Shown here: piece after piece, positions 58,270 to 63,357 of the stretch
Layout: every line of letters begins with the position of its first letter
Numbering within the stretch: position 1 is the stretch's first letter
DNA from: Candidatus Anderseniibacteriota bacterium
Lineage (GTDB): Bacteria; Patescibacteriota; Andersenbacteria; UBA10190
NCBI GenBank assembly: GCA_021414205.1
Contig: JAIOOW010000003.1
Span: 195,370-259,369 of the forward strand
Length of the DNA stretch: 64,000 bases
Direction: 5' to 3'
Notes under the pieces: generated by a model
The model's database searches: none
Seen by the model: the letters and a program-made list of their open reading frames with translations, nothing else
Told to the model about the DNA's origin: nothing
Position numbers and translations under genes: made by a program

Positions 58270-59763
58270 ATGTTCAAGTTTCTTGTACGGCTGTTTATTG
58301 TACTTATAGTTATTGGGGTAATTATCGGTGGTATTTTCTACGGGGTGCGCAGTATTAATGGAAAACATTCTGCGAAAACGCCGGAAGTATTGGGGGCAAG
58401 TCAGGTGGTCCCGGCGTTGCAAGCACTGCTTGTGCAAAGCGACGAAAAGAGCGGGCAAAAGCGAGTGCTTTCGTGCACGGAAAAGGGGTGCTCGGTGATT
58501 TCTGCGCCATCGTCATCTGATGAAAATGCATTGTCTGATGGGAGTTCGTGGTATCGATATTCTGAAAGCAAAGATAAGAATAGCGATTCAATTACGACGT
58601 TGGAAAAAGTGAGCAAAGACGGAACTGTTGAAAAAATATCTGAGCAAAATGCGCTGGTGAAACCGCGCGGGCTTACGATGAGCCAGGACGGTGCGAAGGT
58701 GGCATATTTTTTGGACAATGTTCACGACAATCAAGGACTTACGGAATTATGGGTATATGACAATACTCAAGGCGGAGCAAAGGTGGTTGCGGAGAATCTT
58801 GTACAAAAACAAATCGCATCTCGTGTGCGCTGGAATGCATCCTCGCGCGTCGCATGGTTTTTGCAAGATGGAGCAACGCGCCAATTTATTGCAGTGCCGG
58901 TGCAAGATAAAGCAGCGCCATCAGCGCGCTTTGCAAACGTGGATTGGAATACGTATTCGCAAAATGCGGATACCGGAGTAATGGATGTAAACGACAAAGC
59001 GAATCTCGTGGCGTTTACGGAGCCAACATTTTTTGGATTCTCCCAGCTCACTATCGCGCAAGATAGCGGAGGAATAACGAAGCATTCCATAAAAGGGAAT
59101 GTGGCGTTTGTTCGATGGATGGAAAACGATGCATTGTTATATGCGGTGCAGGATGGGCAAAATCTTGCGTTCTGGATTGCTAATAGCACAGGCGAGCGCC
59201 CTGTTGCGCGCATGCTCGGGCAATTTCGATCAGCGCATTCCTCCGGGTCTTCAGACTTGGCTGCGTTCGTAGCAGATCCGCATCCGGGAGAAAGTCATGT
59301 GTATGTGCTTCAAATCTCTACCGGTTTTGTGAGAGACGAAACGATCATCCCGAATTTTTCAGGAAATACGTATGTAGTGCAGGCAAATGAGGCGCAAGCT
59401 GAGCAAGATAAGGCGGTAGCGGGAATTTCCGGGCAATTACGCGACGAGGAGCTGCTCGCCTTTGTGAATGATCATCTCAAAGACATGACGGGCGATTCCC
59501 AGGCAAAGGCAGAGCGGATGCTGACTACGGATAGCAAGAATACGATCTATGTAGACTACACAAGCGGAAATACGACAGAGAGGAGAATCTTGGTAGTTAT
59601 CCAAGACGCAGTTCACCCCCAGTGGACCGTGCTCGCTCGCTATATCCCGATAGCGGGGCAATGGAAGCGGGATCAGGAGGCTCAGAATGCAGATCCTACC
59701 CCTAAGAGGCTGTATGAATACGAGACATCTGTTTCAGAGTGGATTTTAAAGGAAACCTACTAG
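58270..59763 (+). CDS. hypothetical N-terminally anchored extracytoplasmic protein (497 aa)
   Basis: TM helix LFIVLIVIGVIIGGIFYGV then soluble domain; no domain call. Confidence 0.6.
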   Translation: MFKFLVRLFIVLIVIGVIIGGIFYGVRSINGKHSAKTPEVLGASQVVPALQALLVQSDEKSGQKRVLSCTEKGCSVISAPSSSDENALSDGSSWYRYSESKDKNSDSITTLEKVSKDGTVEKISEQNALVKPRGLTMSQDGAKVAYFLDNVHDNQGLTELWVYDNTQGGAKVVAENLVQKQIASRVRWNASSRVAWFLQDGATRQFIAVPVQDKAAPSARFANVDWNTYSQNADTGVMDVNDKANLVAFTEPTFFGFSQLTIAQDSGGITKHSIKGNVAFVRWMENDALLYAVQDGQNLAFWIANSTGERPVARMLGQFRSAHSSGSSDLAAFVADPHPGESHVYVLQISTGFVRDETIIPNFSGNTYVVQANEAQAEQDKAVAGISGQLRDEELLAFVNDHLKDMTGDSQAKAERMLTTDSKNTIYVDYTSGNTTERRILVVIQDAVHPQWTVLARYIPIAGQWKRDQEAQNADPTPKRLYEYETSVSEWILKETY

Positions 59764-59804
59764 CAACTCTTGCAAAAAATAGGCTTTCTGGTATCATATC
59801 GACT

Positions 59805-59969
59805 ATGTCACAAGATTTCTTAATCCGCCTCCAATGCGTCGACTGTAAGTCGTTTAATTATCATACCCGCCGAAATTTGAAACGGCAGGATTCTATTAAG
59901 CTAGAACGCCTTAAGCACTGCAAAAAGTGCCGAAAACACACTCTTCACAAAGAGAAGCCGAAGAAATAA
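59805..59969 (+). CDS. rpmG: 50S ribosomal protein L33
   Basis: MSQDFLIRLQCVDCKSFNYHTRRN...HCKKCRKHTLHKE (CxxC...CxxC, HKE); trimmed from ORF 59739. Confidence 0.85.
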   Translation: MSQDFLIRLQCVDCKSFNYHTRRNLKRQDSIKLERLKHCKKCRKHTLHKEKPKK

Positions 59970-59996
59970 AAAACCGCCCGTAGGGGCGGTTTTTAT
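59970..59996. terminator. terminator hairpin shared by rpmG and convergent tRNA-Trp
   Basis: ACCGCCC-GTAG-GGGCGGT then TTTTAT. Confidence 0.5.
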
Positions 59997-59999
59997 ATG

Positions 60000-60070
60000 C
60001 AGGGGTGGAAGGAATCGAACCCTCGTTGGTCGCTTTGGAGGCGAATGTCTTACCACTAGACGACACCCCT
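60000..60070 (-). tRNA. tRNA-Trp (CCA)
   Basis: Acceptor AGGGGTG/CACCCCT, D GTCT/AGAC, anticodon loop CTCCAAA, T arm GAGGG-TTCGATT-CCTTC. Confidence 0.8.
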
Positions 60071-60117
60071 ATGGATGTTCATTGTACTGATATCCTGCTT
60101 GCTGTATAGTCTTCGCC

Positions 60118-60813
60118 TTACACTCTCGGATTTATCTGCGTAATGCTAATGAGGTCGGCGTGCACTAAAATACGGTGGCTGATAGACCACAATGGCCAAC
60201 ATGCCATAATCGACATGGTCGGGTACAGATGGTCGGATGGCACGGTGTAGCCGTTTGTCGGCACGATAGTTTCTGATTTGTATACCCTGTACGTGTATCG
60301 AGTACCTTTCCAATCTATGAGCATAGTATCTCCAGGCTTGATTTCATTGATACGGGTAAATGCGAATCTGTATTTGCCTTGCCATGGATATCCGGAGCTA
60401 TGAGCTGCCACGAAGACATTACCCAGTGCACCCGGTTCAACACCATTAGGATAGAGCGATGCTCCATTTTGGAGTGATGCAATCACGTCGGCGTCAGATA
60501 GCGATTTACTTTCAACGAGCGGAACGCTTACATCGATCGATGGAATGCGAATAAAATTTTGCCCTGCTTCAGCAGGATTGAAAGGGGGATTAAGAGGGAG
60601 CTTTGGGTATGGATGAAGAACAAGGTTGGGCGCAGAAGTCGGAGTTGGAGCAGGTACAGAGACCGTTTCTTGCGTTTGCTGGGTCGGTTGCTGCTGCGGA
60701 ATAACAAGGTTGCCAAATGCAGGAACGTACGAGATAAGAAGAAGAATAAGGCCGTAGAAAAAAGTCAGCGCAAACACGAATGTAGCAATAAATGTCACAA
60801 CAGGATGTTTCAT
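60118..60813 (-). CDS. sortase-family transpeptidase
   Basis: N-terminal TM; GNVFVAAHSSG (His), LYPTMSIMACWP (Cys), HRILV (Arg) in sortase order; start trimmed to MKHPVV. Confidence 0.7.
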   Translation of the reverse strand: MKHPVVTFIATFVFALTFFYGLILLLISYVPAFGNLVIPQQQPTQQTQETVSVPAPTPTSAPNLVLHPYPKLPLNPPFNPAEAGQNFIRIPSIDVSVPLVESKSLSDADVIASLQNGASLYPNGVEPGALGNVFVAAHSSGYPWQGKYRFAFTRINEIKPGDTMLIDWKGTRYTYRVYKSETIVPTNGYTVPSDHLYPTMSIMACWPLWSISHRILVHADLISITQINPRV

Positions 60814-60841
60814 AATGTTTTTTATTATAGCATAAATATGT

Positions 60842-60882
60842 AAAAAAAGCAAAAACCGCCTTGTTGGGCGGTTTTTGTTTTG
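60842..60882. terminator. bidirectional terminator
   Basis: A-run, AACCGCC-TTGTTG-GGCGGTT, T-run; downstream of the minus-strand histone-fold gene. Confidence 0.5.
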
Positions 60883-60897
60883 TAGGACCAAAAAGAC

Positions 60898-61074
60898 TTA
60901 TATGTCTTGTGGTTTTACAGTTGTTCGCTTGTTTCCTTTGGATCGCATAACAGCATCGTCTAATACCATCATGATTTTCTTATTGATAGCCTCAGGAAGG
61001 TCACCGGACATCTTTGCGTCCTTTTCTTTTAGATATGCTCGCACCTTGCTTGCAACAACGAGTAATTCGCTCAT
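60898..61074 (-). CDS. histone-fold DNA-binding protein (DUF1931 / bacterial HBb-like singlet, 58 aa); not in ORF track
   Basis: AGGAGGTG SD 8 nt upstream of ATG; MSELLVVASKVRAYLKEKDAKMSGDLPEAINKKIMMVLDDAVMRSKGNKRTTVKPQDI with KRTTV...DI histone-fold R-T/D-I clamp. Confidence 0.6.
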   Translation of the reverse strand: MSELLVVASKVRAYLKEKDAKMSGDLPEAINKKIMMVLDDAVMRSKGNKRTTVKPQDI

Positions 61075-61141
61075 AGATACCCACCTCCTTTACCGAAATG
61101 CATAAGATGTAATCTTTTCCACATCCATCAAAGTCTACCAT

Positions 61142-62260
61142 TTATGCAAGAAACAGGGCAAATGCGAGCAAAATGACTAATGATGCATGCCCGATCATGA
61201 TCGGGTGCTGGATCTCTATGCGAACAAAAATCGCAATAAGTAGCAATACGGCAATCGCGATAAAAATTGTGCCGATAAATTCGCGACTGATGCGTGAAAT
61301 AGTTGCGCCAAATACGGTGGCTGCTTGTGATGCCGGGTGAATGGTGAAGAGCGGTATTGCAGATATGACATCGGAATTTGATGCCACTGCAGAGTGCGCC
61401 GAGAATAATTGCCATGATCCGTCTGATGGAATCGCAAATTCTTCTGCATCAAACGAGGGAGATAAGATAATGCCAGAGATTGGGGGGATAGTTGATTGGT
61501 CTGTCGCAGGTTCAACTGAAGGCGTTGGGCTAGGAGTAGGAGATGGTTCGTTCGATGGCGAAGGCGCCGGGGTCGTTGTGGGGGTAAGTTTTGGCGGAAG
61601 TGCCTTTGCTTGCAGAAGTGCCGAAGGCGGAGGAGTGGGTTCTATAGTTGGTGCAGGCGTAGGTGCGGCTGCCGCTGCGAGTGGTTTCCCGAACATGTGC
61701 ACCACGATAATTGATGTGGACCCATTAAAGCTACCAGACTCTACTGCAACTCCCGTTTCGGTATAGTCTGTGCGGAGCATATTTTCTTTGTGCTTTGGAC
61801 TGGCAAGCCACCCAGCAACCACATCTTCTGCTGAGGTGAAATCCATAGCCAGATTTTCACCTGCTATTTCATAGGAATATCCGGATTGTTCCATCCAGTG
61901 CCATGGAGAAACCCCCGTCGGCGAGAAATGCGCAAAGTACTGATATTTAAACATGTCTTGCGCCTTTAACTCTGCTGCATGCGTAAGCGCGCCGTTTACT
62001 GCAAGATCTTTGAGCCCTACTTTTTCTCGTTCCGCATTCGTAAGCTGGATAATTCTATTCGTTGTAATAGTAGAGAGCGTCGCTTCGCTTGGAGTAAGCG
62101 CGATAATACTGATTGCAGCTATTTTTGCAGTAATTAGTAAGAGGGATATTGCTGTAAGAGACTTATGCCGCAAGGCAAGGGGATGGTGATTATTATCCGG
62201 ATGCGGAATAAAACATACCTTAGCGTGGTGAAGGCCACGCGCCAAAGTGGCATTGCTCAT
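61142..62260 (-). CDS. CAP/SCP/PR-1-like domain protein with PT-rich linker and C-terminal TM segment
   Basis: N-terminal anchor; CAP-like core (ALTHAAELKAQDM...HFSPTGV...GENLA...GWLASPKHKENM); PTPxP linker; hydrophobic C-terminus. Confidence 0.65.
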   Translation of the reverse strand: MSNATLARGLHHAKVCFIPHPDNNHHPLALRHKSLTAISLLLITAKIAAISIIALTPSEATLSTITTNRIIQLTNAEREKVGLKDLAVNGALTHAAELKAQDMFKYQYFAHFSPTGVSPWHWMEQSGYSYEIAGENLAMDFTSAEDVVAGWLASPKHKENMLRTDYTETGVAVESGSFNGSTSIIVVHMFGKPLAAAAAPTPAPTIEPTPPPSALLQAKALPPKLTPTTTPAPSPSNEPSPTPSPTPSVEPATDQSTIPPISGIILSPSFDAEEFAIPSDGSWQLFSAHSAVASNSDVISAIPLFTIHPASQAATVFGATISRISREFIGTIFIAIAVLLLIAIFVRIEIQHPIMIGHASLVILLAFALFLA

Positions 62261-62289
62261 ATGAGGTAGTGTATCGTATAAATAATCCT

Positions 62290-63357
62290 ATGAATATCGT
62301 TATCGTGGCAGGGGGCGGGGGAACAAGGCTTTGGCCTCTCTCTAAGAAGGCGTTGCCGAAGCAATTCCTAGATTTGGGAACGGGGAAAACTCTTATAGAG
62401 CATACGTTCGATAGAGCATTGCAATTAACTGATGCAAGTAATATTTACGTTGCTACTACCGAAGAACATGTGGCTAAGACAAAAGAGGTATTGCCAATGC
62501 TTTCTCCTAATCACATTTTCACAGAACCGGAGCGCCGAGAAACTGGCCCCGCGCTTGCAGCAACGGCGATCCAGCTGGTTGGATTAGGAAAAGGGGATGA
62601 GCCAGTTTTATTTTTGTGGGCTGATCATGTATTTACAGATGAGGCGTCTTTAGTAAGAGATTTGAATATCATGGGCGAGCTTGTTGCGAAAGATTCAAAC
62701 AGAATCGTTATTATGGGTCATGTGCCAGTGAGTCCGGAAACAGGATACGGTTATATGAAGATGGGCGAAAAAGTAGAAGGATATGACCATGTGCACAAGA
62801 TAGATGAATTCAAGGAAAAGCCCGACTTGGAAACGGCGGAGGGTTATGTTGCGGCTCAAACATATTTCTGGAATATGGGATACATATGCGTGACGCCGAA
62901 TTTCTTTTTGCAAGAACTTGCCGTGCATACGCCGGAGCTTGTGAGCGGAGTGAGAAAATTTGCAGAGGCGCTTGCAGGTCATGATGAGCAGCAAGCAAAA
63001 AATGCCTATCATGAACTCCCAAAAATCGCGATCGACTATGCGCTCAATGAAAAAACAAAGCATATTATTGCAGTAACAGGCGATTACGGATGGAGCGACG
63101 TAGGAAGTTGGGCAGTGGTGAAGGAATTATTTGGCGTGGATGGCGACCATGTGCCAAAAGGGCATCATGTGCATGTGGATAGCGATAATAATTATATTTA
63201 TAATGCTACAGACAAAGCTGTATCGCTCATTGGTATTCATAATACGGTAGTAGTGGTGACGGATAATGCGATTTTAATTTCGGATACTGCAAGTTCTCAG
63301 AAAGTAAAAGATGTAGTGAAGAAAATTGAAGAGAATGGGAAGGATGAATATTTATGA
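62290..63357 (+). CDS. mannose-1-phosphate guanylyltransferase-like nucleotidyltransferase
   Basis: IVAGGGGTRLWPLS...PKQF signature of NTP_transferase (GDP-mannose pyrophosphorylase family). Confidence 0.8.
   Translation: MNIVIVAGGGGTRLWPLSKKALPKQFLDLGTGKTLIEHTFDRALQLTDASNIYVATTEEHVAKTKEVLPMLSPNHIFTEPERRETGPALAATAIQLVGLGKGDEPVLFLWADHVFTDEASLVRDLNIMGELVAKDSNRIVIMGHVPVSPETGYGYMKMGEKVEGYDHVHKIDEFKEKPDLETAEGYVAAQTYFWNMGYICVTPNFFLQELAVHTPELVSGVRKFAEALAGHDEQQAKNAYHELPKIAIDYALNEKTKHIIAVTGDYGWSDVGSWAVVKELFGVDGDHVPKGHHVHVDSDNNYIYNATDKAVSLIGIHNTVVVVTDNAILISDTASSQKVKDVVKKIEENGKDEYL

What the first reader, a model, noticed from the sequence alone, without database searches (positions are those of the whole stretch)
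60898..61074. Unlisted 58-aa histone-fold (DUF1931/HBb-like) gene with a strong RBS
The minus-strand ORF is below the track cut-off. It is preceded by AGGAGGTG at ideal spacing and followed by a terminator. Its sequence MSELLVVASKVRAYLKEKDAKMSGDLPEAINKKIMMVLDDAVMRSKGNKRTTVKPQDI shows the pattern of bacterial singlet histone-fold proteins. These have an N-terminal helix, a short linker, and a long helix ending in a K/R-R/K-T-V...D-I clamp. The pattern is closely reminiscent of Bdellovibrio HBb-type proteins. Bacterial histones are recently recognised and rarely annotated.
Basis: partly seen in the sequence, partly recalled or inferred. Interest (0 to 1): 0.55.

Follow-up and report, generated by a model that had tools for sequence, protein, structure and literature searches.

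The report
Small bacterial histone gene, HLp-type
The 58-codon minus-strand ORF is a real, conserved gene for a bacterial histone in an uncultured Andersenbacteria (CPR) genome; its closest solved relative is the DNA-wrapping tetrameric histone HLp of Leptospira, so it is a correct call on a family already described.

Summary
ORF 60898..61074 (-) has AAGGAGGTG 7 nt before its ATG and an 11-bp terminator hairpin after it.

It is a real gene. Across 31 relatives, variation sits at third codon positions (entropy 1.52 against 0.65 and 0.44) and median dN/dS is about 0.11. The rival plus-strand frame has stops in 22 of 30 relatives.

It is a histone-fold protein. AlphaFold2 gives pLDDT 92.8 with α1, α2 and a 3-residue α3. 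The best structural match is HLp of Leptospira perolatii (TM 0.92-0.95, 48% identity; phmmer E 1.3e-13).

The subtype needs correcting. It is not a DUF1931 pseudodimer, and it is not the HBb "bacterial dimer" type. It carries the invariant face-to-face (FtF) signature R44-N48-R50-T52-D57. It most likely forms tetramers that wrap about 60 bp of DNA, but the tetramer could not be tested here.

The gene sits in conserved CAP-histone-sortase order in about 30 CPR species, so it is inherited vertically.

Novelty is low. Andersenbacteria orthologues are already listed in the supplement of Hocher et al. 2023. Databases still call it "hypothetical" because no Pfam or NCBIfam model reaches its cut-off.

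One unexplained extra is a conserved GATGTGGA(A/T)AA motif at its promoter.

The parts
60898..61074 (-). Coding sequence of the 58-aa α3-truncated (FtF/HLp-type) histone, stop codon included
   Evidence: ORF. Identical to an NCBI 'hypothetical protein' of a Candidatus Andersenbacteria MAG. Median dN/dS about 0.11 and third-position entropy 1.52. AlphaFold2 pLDDT 92.8. HLp is the best PDB hit.
61082..61090 (-). Shine-Dalgarno sequence AAGGAGGTG, 7 nt before the ATG
   Evidence: Sequence. The 8-mer occurs only 3 times in the window. Conserved at the same spacing in most of 31 relatives.
61132..61161 (-). Inferred σ70-type promoter: -35 TTGCCC (61161..61156), 18-nt spacer, extended -10 TGG+TAGACT (61140..61132). 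The -35 lies in the 3' end of the upstream CAP-domain gene.
   Evidence: Inferred from conservation. TGGTA(C/G/A)A(A/C)T is kept in about 25 relatives, and deeper relatives have ATTGAG about 18 nt upstream. Not flagged by the consensus scan because only 8 of 12 hexamer positions match. The transcription start was not mapped.
61115..61125 (-). Conserved motif GATGTGGAAAA at or just after the predicted transcription start; function unknown (candidate operator or 5' UTR element)
   Evidence: Conserved in most CPR loci. The -10 plus TGTGGA pattern occurs once per locus, only at this promoter, in 21 loci. This is the only exact ATGTGGAWAA in the 64-kb window.
60840..60877 (-). Intrinsic terminator: 11-bp stem, 6-nt loop and T run
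   Evidence: A hairpin plus T run is present after the stop codon in relatives, with different stem sequences.

Best explanation
The ORF encodes a minimal, tail-less bacterial histone of the α3-truncated family, face-to-face (FtF) subtype, orthologous in type to Leptospira HLp. Shown here: it is a real gene under purifying selection, it is transcriptionally self-contained (own conserved promoter-like block, strong ribosome-binding site, own terminator), and it folds as α1 (8-17), L1, α2 (26-47), L2 and a 3-residue α3 (55-57). Inferred by homology to HLp: two chains form the antiparallel histone dimer, and two dimers join face to face through the end of α2, L2 and α3 (R44, N48, R50) into a ring-shaped tetramer. 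DNA is contacted without sequence specificity through the α1 N-terminus (A8 S9 K10 R12 K16) and the paired L1/L2 loops (G24, T51 T52), held by the R50-D57 clamp. About 60 bp would be wrapped around each tetramer, which compacts the chromosome. It would therefore act as a nucleoid-associated chromatin protein of this small CPR genome. Its abundance, and whether it coexists with HU, are unknown.
For: Real gene: pS 0.37 against pN 0.04 to the nearest species; median dN/dS 0.11; entropy by codon position 0.65/0.44/1.52. 60 homologues at 59-100% identity, nearly all 58-62 aa. Histone fold: pLDDT 92.8, helices 8-17, 26-47 and 55-57. Foldseek against the PDB gives HLp TM 0.92/0.95 at rmsd 0.8 Å, then HBb at about 0.90, HTkC at 0.89, then H3/H4. 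Sequence: phmmer to HLp (9qt0) E 1.3e-13 over 55 residues; the family profile gives HLp 76.8 bits, HTkC 36.5 and HBb 35.7. FtF signature: the HMM-logo residues R48, N52, R54, T56 and D61 (PMC11390915) map with exact spacing to R44, N48, R50, T52 and D57, all invariant in 29 homologues. Of the six HLp tetramer H-bond residues, the three described as conserved among tetrameric bacterial FtF histones (R49, N53, R55; PMC12701072) are identical. Seven of nine HLp DNA-contact residues are identical and K17 becomes R12. The protein is basic: pI 9.6, net +4. Vertical inheritance: the NTP-transferase/CAP/histone/sortase order is kept in about 30 CPR species representatives while the neighbours fall to 42-60% identity.
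Against: Three of the six HLp tetramer-interface residues differ (S52 to G47, T61 to Q56, F63 to I58). The HLp DNA contact T27 is M22 here. No expression, abundance or DNA-binding data exist for any CPR member. No curated Pfam or NCBIfam model reaches its cut-off (best E 0.046). Overall similarity alone does not separate FtF from dimer types: HTkC, a proven tetramer, scores the same as HBb, a dimer.
Confidence: 0.72

Rival explanations
1. It is a histone, but it works like Bdellovibrio HBb: a stable dimer that bends or coats DNA and does not form a wrapping tetramer.
For: HBb is a clear relative (TM about 0.90, 34-36% identity; 35.7 bits). Three of the six HLp tetramer contacts are changed. 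The oligomeric state was not testable.
Against: HBb-type 'bacterial dimers' are described as lacking R48 and N52 (PMC11390915). In the alignment HBb has S and D at those positions, whereas this clade has invariant R44 and N48. HLp is much closer in sequence: 76.8 bits against 35.7, and 48% identity against about 35%.
Confidence: 0.2
2. It is a histone-fold protein with a role outside chromatin, for example a specific regulator or a protein-protein adaptor linked to the neighbouring CAP-domain and sortase genes, as proposed for DUF1931 and other divergent histone folds.
For: The position between a CAP-domain gene and a sortase gene is strictly conserved in about 30 species. A promoter-specific conserved motif suggests dedicated regulation. 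The 2024 survey cautions that not all prokaryotic histone folds are genome organisers.
Against: The DNA-contact residues of HLp are kept and invariant. The protein is basic. It has its own terminator and promoter-like block, so it is not an obvious operon partner. Related copies in Planctomycetota, Leptospira and other phyla (L034 onward) gave no CAP or sortase match in the same tblastn, so the neighbours are clade-specific.
Confidence: 0.07
3. The ORF is a chance reading frame, or the overlapping plus-strand ORF 60875..61105 is the real gene.
For: The plus-strand ORF (76 aa, TTG start) is longer, and short ORFs abound in this region.
Against: The plus-strand frame has stops in 22 of 30 relatives. 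Variation is concentrated at third positions of the minus-strand frame, and dN/dS is about 0.11. There is a confident fold and E 1.3e-13 to a solved histone. The ribosome-binding site and terminator are conserved on the minus strand.
Confidence: 0.01

Closest known systems
HLp, face-to-face (FtF) α3 histone of Leptospira perolatii / L. interrogans (PDB 9QT0-9QT2; PMC12701072)
   Same: 48% identity over the whole fold, TM 0.92-0.95, rmsd 0.8 Å. Same truncated α3 and short α2. Same RD clamp (R50-D57). The same three conserved tetramer residues (R44, N48, R50). Seven of nine DNA-contact residues are identical. Basic pI.
   Different: There is no N-terminal tail: the fold starts 7 residues after Met1, whereas Leptospirales FtF histones always have a tail and most bacterial ones do. 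Interface residues S52, T61 and F63 are G47, Q56 and I58. The α1-L1 signature is SKVRxYLKxKxxKMSG rather than SKVKAYIKSKGFMTSG. The host is an uncultured CPR bacterium. No biochemistry exists.
HTkC (Thermococcus kodakarensis, PDB 9F2C) and other archaeal FtF histones
   Same: Same fold and length (TM 0.89). Tail-less, like most archaeal FtF histones. The R at the R44 position and the RxTxxxxD motif are kept.
   Different: Only about 20% identity. HTkC has E where this protein has N48 (alignment). Different domain of life.
HBb / Bd0055 'bacterial dimer' histone of Bdellovibrio bacteriovorus (PDB 8FVX, 8CMP, 9EZZ)
   Same: A singlet α3-truncated bacterial histone of the same size, with a similar N-terminus (MAEVLVVTSKVK), the R-K/T-T-V...D-I clamp, and TM about 0.90.
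   Different: HBb has S and D where this protein has R44 and N48, the tetramer residues. Identity is 34-36% and the profile score is half that of HLp. HBb is a dimer that bends DNA (PMC11390915).
DUF1931 pseudodimeric histone-fold proteins (Aquifex aeolicus Aq_328, 1R4V; Thermus thermophilus, 1WWI)
   Same: Same histone-fold superfamily. Four of 29 family members give sub-threshold PF09123 hits (best E 0.01).
   Different: DUF1931 proteins have two folds in one chain and lack the DNA-binding residues (PMC12701072). This protein is a single fold with those residues. There is no PF09123 hit for it and no profile hit to 1R4V or 1WWI at E up to 10.

Membership tests
Histone-fold superfamily | α1-L1-α2-L2-α3 topology with a long central helix | tested here: met
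   AlphaFold2 pLDDT 92.8; helices 8-17, 26-47 and 55-57. All top Foldseek PDB hits are histones.
Histone-fold superfamily | RxTxxxxD motif / intramolecular R-D clamp that stabilises L2 | tested here: met
   R50, T52 and D57 are invariant in 29 homologues. They correspond to R55 and D62 of HLp.
Histone-fold superfamily | Score above a curated Pfam or NCBIfam cut-off (PF00125, PF00808, NF043032) | tested here: not met
   PF00125 scores 14.4 bits against a cut-off of 26.4. NF043032 scores 14.2 against 50. None of 29 members passes any cut-off. This is a limit of the models rather than of the protein: direct comparison with solved FtF histones is highly significant.
α3-truncated histones (Schwab et al. 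2024) | α3 helix of only 3-4 residues, and α2 4-5 residues shorter than in nucleosomal histones | tested here: met
   α3 is residues 55-57 (3 residues), α2 is 22 residues, and the protein ends at residue 58. Definition.
Face-to-face (FtF) histones | Ring-shaped homotetramer in which both sides of the dimers interact (the defining criterion) | not testable with these tools
   Only single-chain prediction is offered.
Face-to-face (FtF) histones | Conserved R48 and N52 of the FtF HMM logo (dimer-dimer contacts), with R54, T56 and D61 | tested here: met
   R44, N48, R50, T52 and D57 have identical spacing and are invariant across 29 homologues. They are also kept in 68 loci from several phyla.
Face-to-face (FtF) histones | Closest solved relatives are proven FtF tetramers | tested here: met
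   HLp: E 1.3e-13 with one sequence, 1.3e-20 with the profile, TM 0.92-0.95.
Bacterial dimer histones (HBb type) | Lack of the R48 and N52 tetramer residues, and sequence clustering with Bd0055 | tested here: not met
   R44 and N48 are present and invariant. HBb has S and D at those positions. The profile score to HBb is 35.7 bits against 76.8 to HLp.
DUF1931 (PF09123) pseudodimeric histones | Two histone folds in one chain, without the canonical DNA-binding residues | tested here: not met
   A single 58-aa fold with the DNA-contact residues conserved. No PF09123 hit. No hit to 1R4V or 1WWI.

The most novel reading that the evidence does not exclude
In the Andersenbacteria, a whole class-level CPR lineage with genomes well under 1 Mb, this tail-less 58-aa FtF histone may be the principal chromatin protein, possibly in place of or dominant over HU. 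It may also be controlled by a dedicated regulator that recognises the conserved GATGTGGA(A/T)AA element, which sits at the transcription start and, in deeper branches, also upstream of the -35. That would make CPR bacteria a third bacterial lineage, after Bdellovibrio and Leptospira, with histone-based chromatin, and the first with a recognisable cis-regulatory element on a bacterial histone gene.
Probability: 0.3. Interest if true: 0.55.

Novelty: new member of a known kind. Interest (0 to 1): 0.32.

Why it matters
Bacterial histones were recognised only in 2023-2025, and only two have been studied in depth (HBb and HLp). This gene shows that an HLp-type histone is a fixed, syntenic, vertically inherited component of a CPR lineage, in its most minimal tail-less form. 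It also shows that current annotation models miss it entirely: it is 'hypothetical protein' in NCBI, and no Pfam or NCBIfam model reaches its cut-off. In practice this argues for a dedicated FtF/α3 histone profile in annotation pipelines. It also offers a compact candidate for biochemical comparison with HLp. It does not change what is known about the family. Andersenbacteria orthologues are already listed in the supplement of Hocher et al. 2023.

Tried and rejected
2. HU/IHF co-occurrence: tblastn with E. coli HupA and IhfA and B. subtilis HBsu found nothing in the window or in 771 kb of fetched loci. Each genome is sampled only around the histone gene, so this says nothing about absence genome-wide.
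3. RNA alternative: an Rfam scan of 59500..62500 at E up to 1 gave only tRNA-Trp and sub-threshold terminator-like hits around 60800-60940, all far below their gathering scores. Rejected.
4. Plus-strand ORF 60875..61105: rejected on stop codons in relatives and on the codon-position pattern.
5. DUF1931 membership: rejected.
6. Leader hairpin: GATGT...ACATC pairs in the window, L008 and L009 but is not kept in other relatives. Rejected as a conserved structure.
7. The consensus promoter scan did not flag the histone promoter. It was inferred only from cross-species conservation.
8. Literature: no paper in the library holds 'histone', 'Patescibacteria' and 'nucleoid-associated' together. The supplements of the 2024 survey and the 2025 HLp paper do not mention Patescibacteria. 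The Hocher 2023 supplement does list Andersenbacteria sequences.

Full report
**1. What is in the sequence**

AAGGAGGTG lies at 61090..61082, 7 nt before the ATG. Twenty nucleotides after the TAA stop there is a hairpin of 11 pairs (6 of them G-C) with a 6-nt loop and a T run (60877..60850).

The 8-mer AGGAGGTG occurs only three times in the 64-kb window. One of the other two copies is followed by a sequence with no nearby start codon, and the other sits 19 nt from an ATG. This is therefore the only copy in the window at canonical spacing before a start codon.

A 58-codon ORF alone is not remarkable here, since 62 ORFs of at least 30 aa overlap the surrounding 5.5 kb. The case has to rest on conservation.

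**2. Is it a gene, and on which strand**

The protein is identical to a "hypothetical protein" (K8Q97_03935) of a Candidatus Andersenbacteria MAG. It has 60 homologues at 59-100% identity, nearly all 58-62 aa long. It is called as a gene on 17 public contigs.

I extracted the coding DNA from 31 species-level relatives and compared the last 54 codons.

| Measure | Result |
|---|---|
| Column entropy at codon positions 1 / 2 / 3 | 0.65 / 0.44 / 1.52 |
| Third positions that vary | all 54 |
| Nearest species | pS 0.37, pN 0.04 |
| Median dN/dS, pairs with finite dS | 0.11 |
| Relatives with stops in the frame of plus-strand ORF 60875..61105 | 22 of 30 (1-3 stops each) |

The minus-strand ORF is therefore a protein-coding gene under strong purifying selection, and the rival plus-strand ORF is not. 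The AAGGAGGTG-N7-ATG arrangement is kept in most of the 31 relatives. The terminator hairpin is kept with different stem sequences. An Rfam scan found no RNA family over the ORF.

**3. What the protein is**

Curated profile libraries nearly miss it. Pfam Histone and NCBIfam archaea_histone both give E 0.046, far below their cut-offs. None of 29 family members passes any Pfam cut-off, which explains the "hypothetical" label.

Direct comparison with solved structures is unambiguous.
- phmmer gives E 1.3e-13 over 55 residues to 9qt0. It gives about 0.01 to the Bdellovibrio HBb chains and 0.2 to 9f2c.
- With the family profile the scores are 76.8 bits (9qt0), 36.5 (9f2c) and 35.7 (HBb). There is nothing to 1R4V or 1WWI, even at E 10.
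- 9qt0 is HLp of Leptospira perolatii, a face-to-face (FtF) α3 histone that forms stable tetramers and wraps about 60 bp of DNA (PMC12701072).
- 9f2c is the archaeal FtF histone HTkC (PMC11390915).

An AlphaFold2 model built from the 29-sequence alignment has mean pLDDT 92.8. It shows helices at 8-17, 26-47 and a three-residue turn at 55-57. Foldseek places it on HLp at TM 0.92-0.95 and rmsd 0.8 Å with 48% identity. HBb follows at about 0.90, HTkC at 0.89, and then eukaryotic H3/H4. The protein is basic, with pI 9.6 and net charge +4.

**4. Which kind of histone**

The 2024 survey defines α3 histones by an α3 helix of 3-4 residues and a shortened α2, and the model meets both. Within them, FtF histones are defined by a ring tetramer and show conserved logo residues R48, N52, R54, T56 and D61. 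HBb-type "bacterial dimers" lack R48 and N52.

In the window protein these residues map, with identical spacing, to R44, N48, R50, T52 and D57. All are invariant in 29 homologues and are kept in 68 loci across phyla. In the pairwise alignment HBb has S and D at the R44 and N48 positions.

Using the HLp paper's numbering (window residue + 5):
- The three tetramer residues it calls conserved among tetrameric bacterial FtF histones (R49, N53, R55) are identical here.
- The other three H-bond partners differ: S52 is G47, T61 is Q56 and F63 is I58.
- Seven of nine DNA-contact residues are identical (A8, S9, K10, K16, G24, T51, T52). K17 becomes R12 and T27 becomes M22.

The protein therefore fits the FtF type and fails the defining features of both the HBb dimer class and DUF1931, which is a two-fold pseudodimer without DNA-binding residues.

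The tetramer itself could not be tested.

Unlike most bacterial FtF histones, and all Leptospirales ones, this protein has no N-terminal tail. In that respect it resembles the archaeal members.

**5. Surroundings and history**

The gene lies between a CAP-domain protein gene (61142..62260, -) and a sortase gene (60118..60822, -). Ribosomal protein L33 and tRNA-Trp lie beyond them.

The order NTP-transferase / CAP / histone / sortase is kept in about 30 species-representative CPR genomes, while the neighbours diverge to 42-60% identity. The gene is therefore an old, vertically inherited resident of this lineage, not a recent acquisition or a contaminant.

These genomes are Candidatus Anderseniibacteriota, in the Parcubacteria group of the Patescibacteria/CPR. 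Many of them are labelled generically as "uncultured Candidatus Saccharibacteria" in their records.

The CPR copies cluster together and have their own α1-L1 signature. Relatives at 45-61% identity occur in Planctomycetota, Leptospira interrogans (50%) and other groups. A search of 1.84 billion cluster representatives found 1,331 family members at E up to 1e-3.

**6. Expression signals**

Anchoring the upstream regions of the CPR loci at the start codon reveals three conserved features.
- An extended -10, TGGTA(C/G/A)A(A/C)T. In the window this is TGG at 61140..61138 and TAGACT at 61137..61132.
- A -35 about 18 nt upstream. It is ATTGAG in deeper relatives and TTGCCC (61161..61156) in the window, inside the end of the CAP gene.
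- GATGTGGA(A/T)AA (61125..61115), starting 6 nt after the -10 hexamer, at about the expected transcription start.

Several deeper-branching loci have a second TGTGGA(A/T)AG copy upstream of the -35. The -10 plus TGTGGA pattern occurs once per locus, only at this promoter, in 21 loci. The window holds no other exact copy of the motif. I could not explain this element. It may be an operator or a 5' UTR signal.

**7. Mechanism and confidence**

- Shown: this is a conserved, independently signalled gene whose product has an α3-truncated histone fold closest to HLp.
- Inferred: it forms dimers and then face-to-face tetramers, binds DNA without sequence preference through the α1 N-terminus and the L1/L2 loops, wraps about 60 bp, and so acts as a nucleoid protein.
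- Confidence: about 0.95 that it is a DNA-binding histone-fold protein, and about 0.7 that it is a wrapping tetramer rather than an HBb-like bending dimer (about 0.2).
- Unknown: its abundance, and whether it coexists with HU. HU searches of the available DNA were negative but uninformative.

**8. Novelty**

The family and its mechanism are published (PMC10627809, PMC11390915, PMC12701072).

The main texts do not mention Patescibacteria. The supplementary tables of Hocher et al. 2023 do list singlet histones from Candidatus Andersenbacteria. One entry, OGY33174.1, is identical to the protein I extracted from L041, which is 60% identical to the window protein.

This is therefore a new member of a known kind. 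Interest is modest, at 0.32.

Noticed in passing
window 61115..61125 (-) and 61132..61161 (-); same position in L001-L047: A conserved GATGTGGA(A/T)AA motif lies immediately downstream of the histone gene's extended -10 (TGGTAnAnT). Several deeper relatives (L023-L025, L033, L041, L042, L044, L074) have a second TGTGGA(A/T)AG copy upstream of the -35. It occurs only at this promoter in each locus. It may be an operator or a 5' UTR element for an unknown factor.
   Followed up: partly
window 59805..59969 (+): A second small gene below the 60-aa ORF cut-off: ribosomal protein L33 (54 aa, PF00471, E 1.9e-13). It sits next to tRNA-Trp at 59999..60070 (-).
   Followed up: yes
proteins P0061, P0063-P0068, P0070, P0074, not in the window: Natural fused doublets of about 118-141 aa carry two FtF-like histone folds in one chain. 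In the six sequences read (P0061, P0063-P0066, P0068) both halves keep R-x3-N-x-R-x-T-x4-D. They score as the closest relatives of the CPR singlets (E down to 3e-28). In the 2024 survey's main text, 'doublet' and 'fused' occur only in connection with viral histones or added domains. Their source organisms are unknown.
   Followed up: no
window 60118..62260 (-); L008-L047, L074: The histone gene is always sandwiched between a membrane-anchored CAP-domain protein gene with a Pro/Thr/Ser-rich linker and a sortase gene, in about 30 CPR species. The CAP protein and the sortase may be a substrate-enzyme pair. No functional link to the histone is evident.
   Followed up: partly
L037, L046, L050, L058, L071: Five high-GC (63-76%) loci, four labelled Planctomycetota or Brocadiia and one (L046) only 'uncultured bacterium', carry histones that cluster with the low-GC CPR clade (SKVRAY...MMSGELL) rather than with the other Planctomycetota copies. 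This hints at transfer between the phyla.
   Followed up: no
L064 and L066 compared with Hocher 2023 supplement file 3: The same histone core (one residue different) is attributed to an 'archaeon isolate ARS54' (L064), an 'uncultured bacterium' (L066) and a 'Patescibacteria group bacterium UBA6539' in different records. The taxonomic labels of these low-GC (35-36%) MAG contigs conflict.
   Followed up: no
window 58270..59763 (+): A 497-aa protein with an N-terminal membrane helix matches no Pfam family. It is conserved next to this locus on the related contigs.
   Followed up: no
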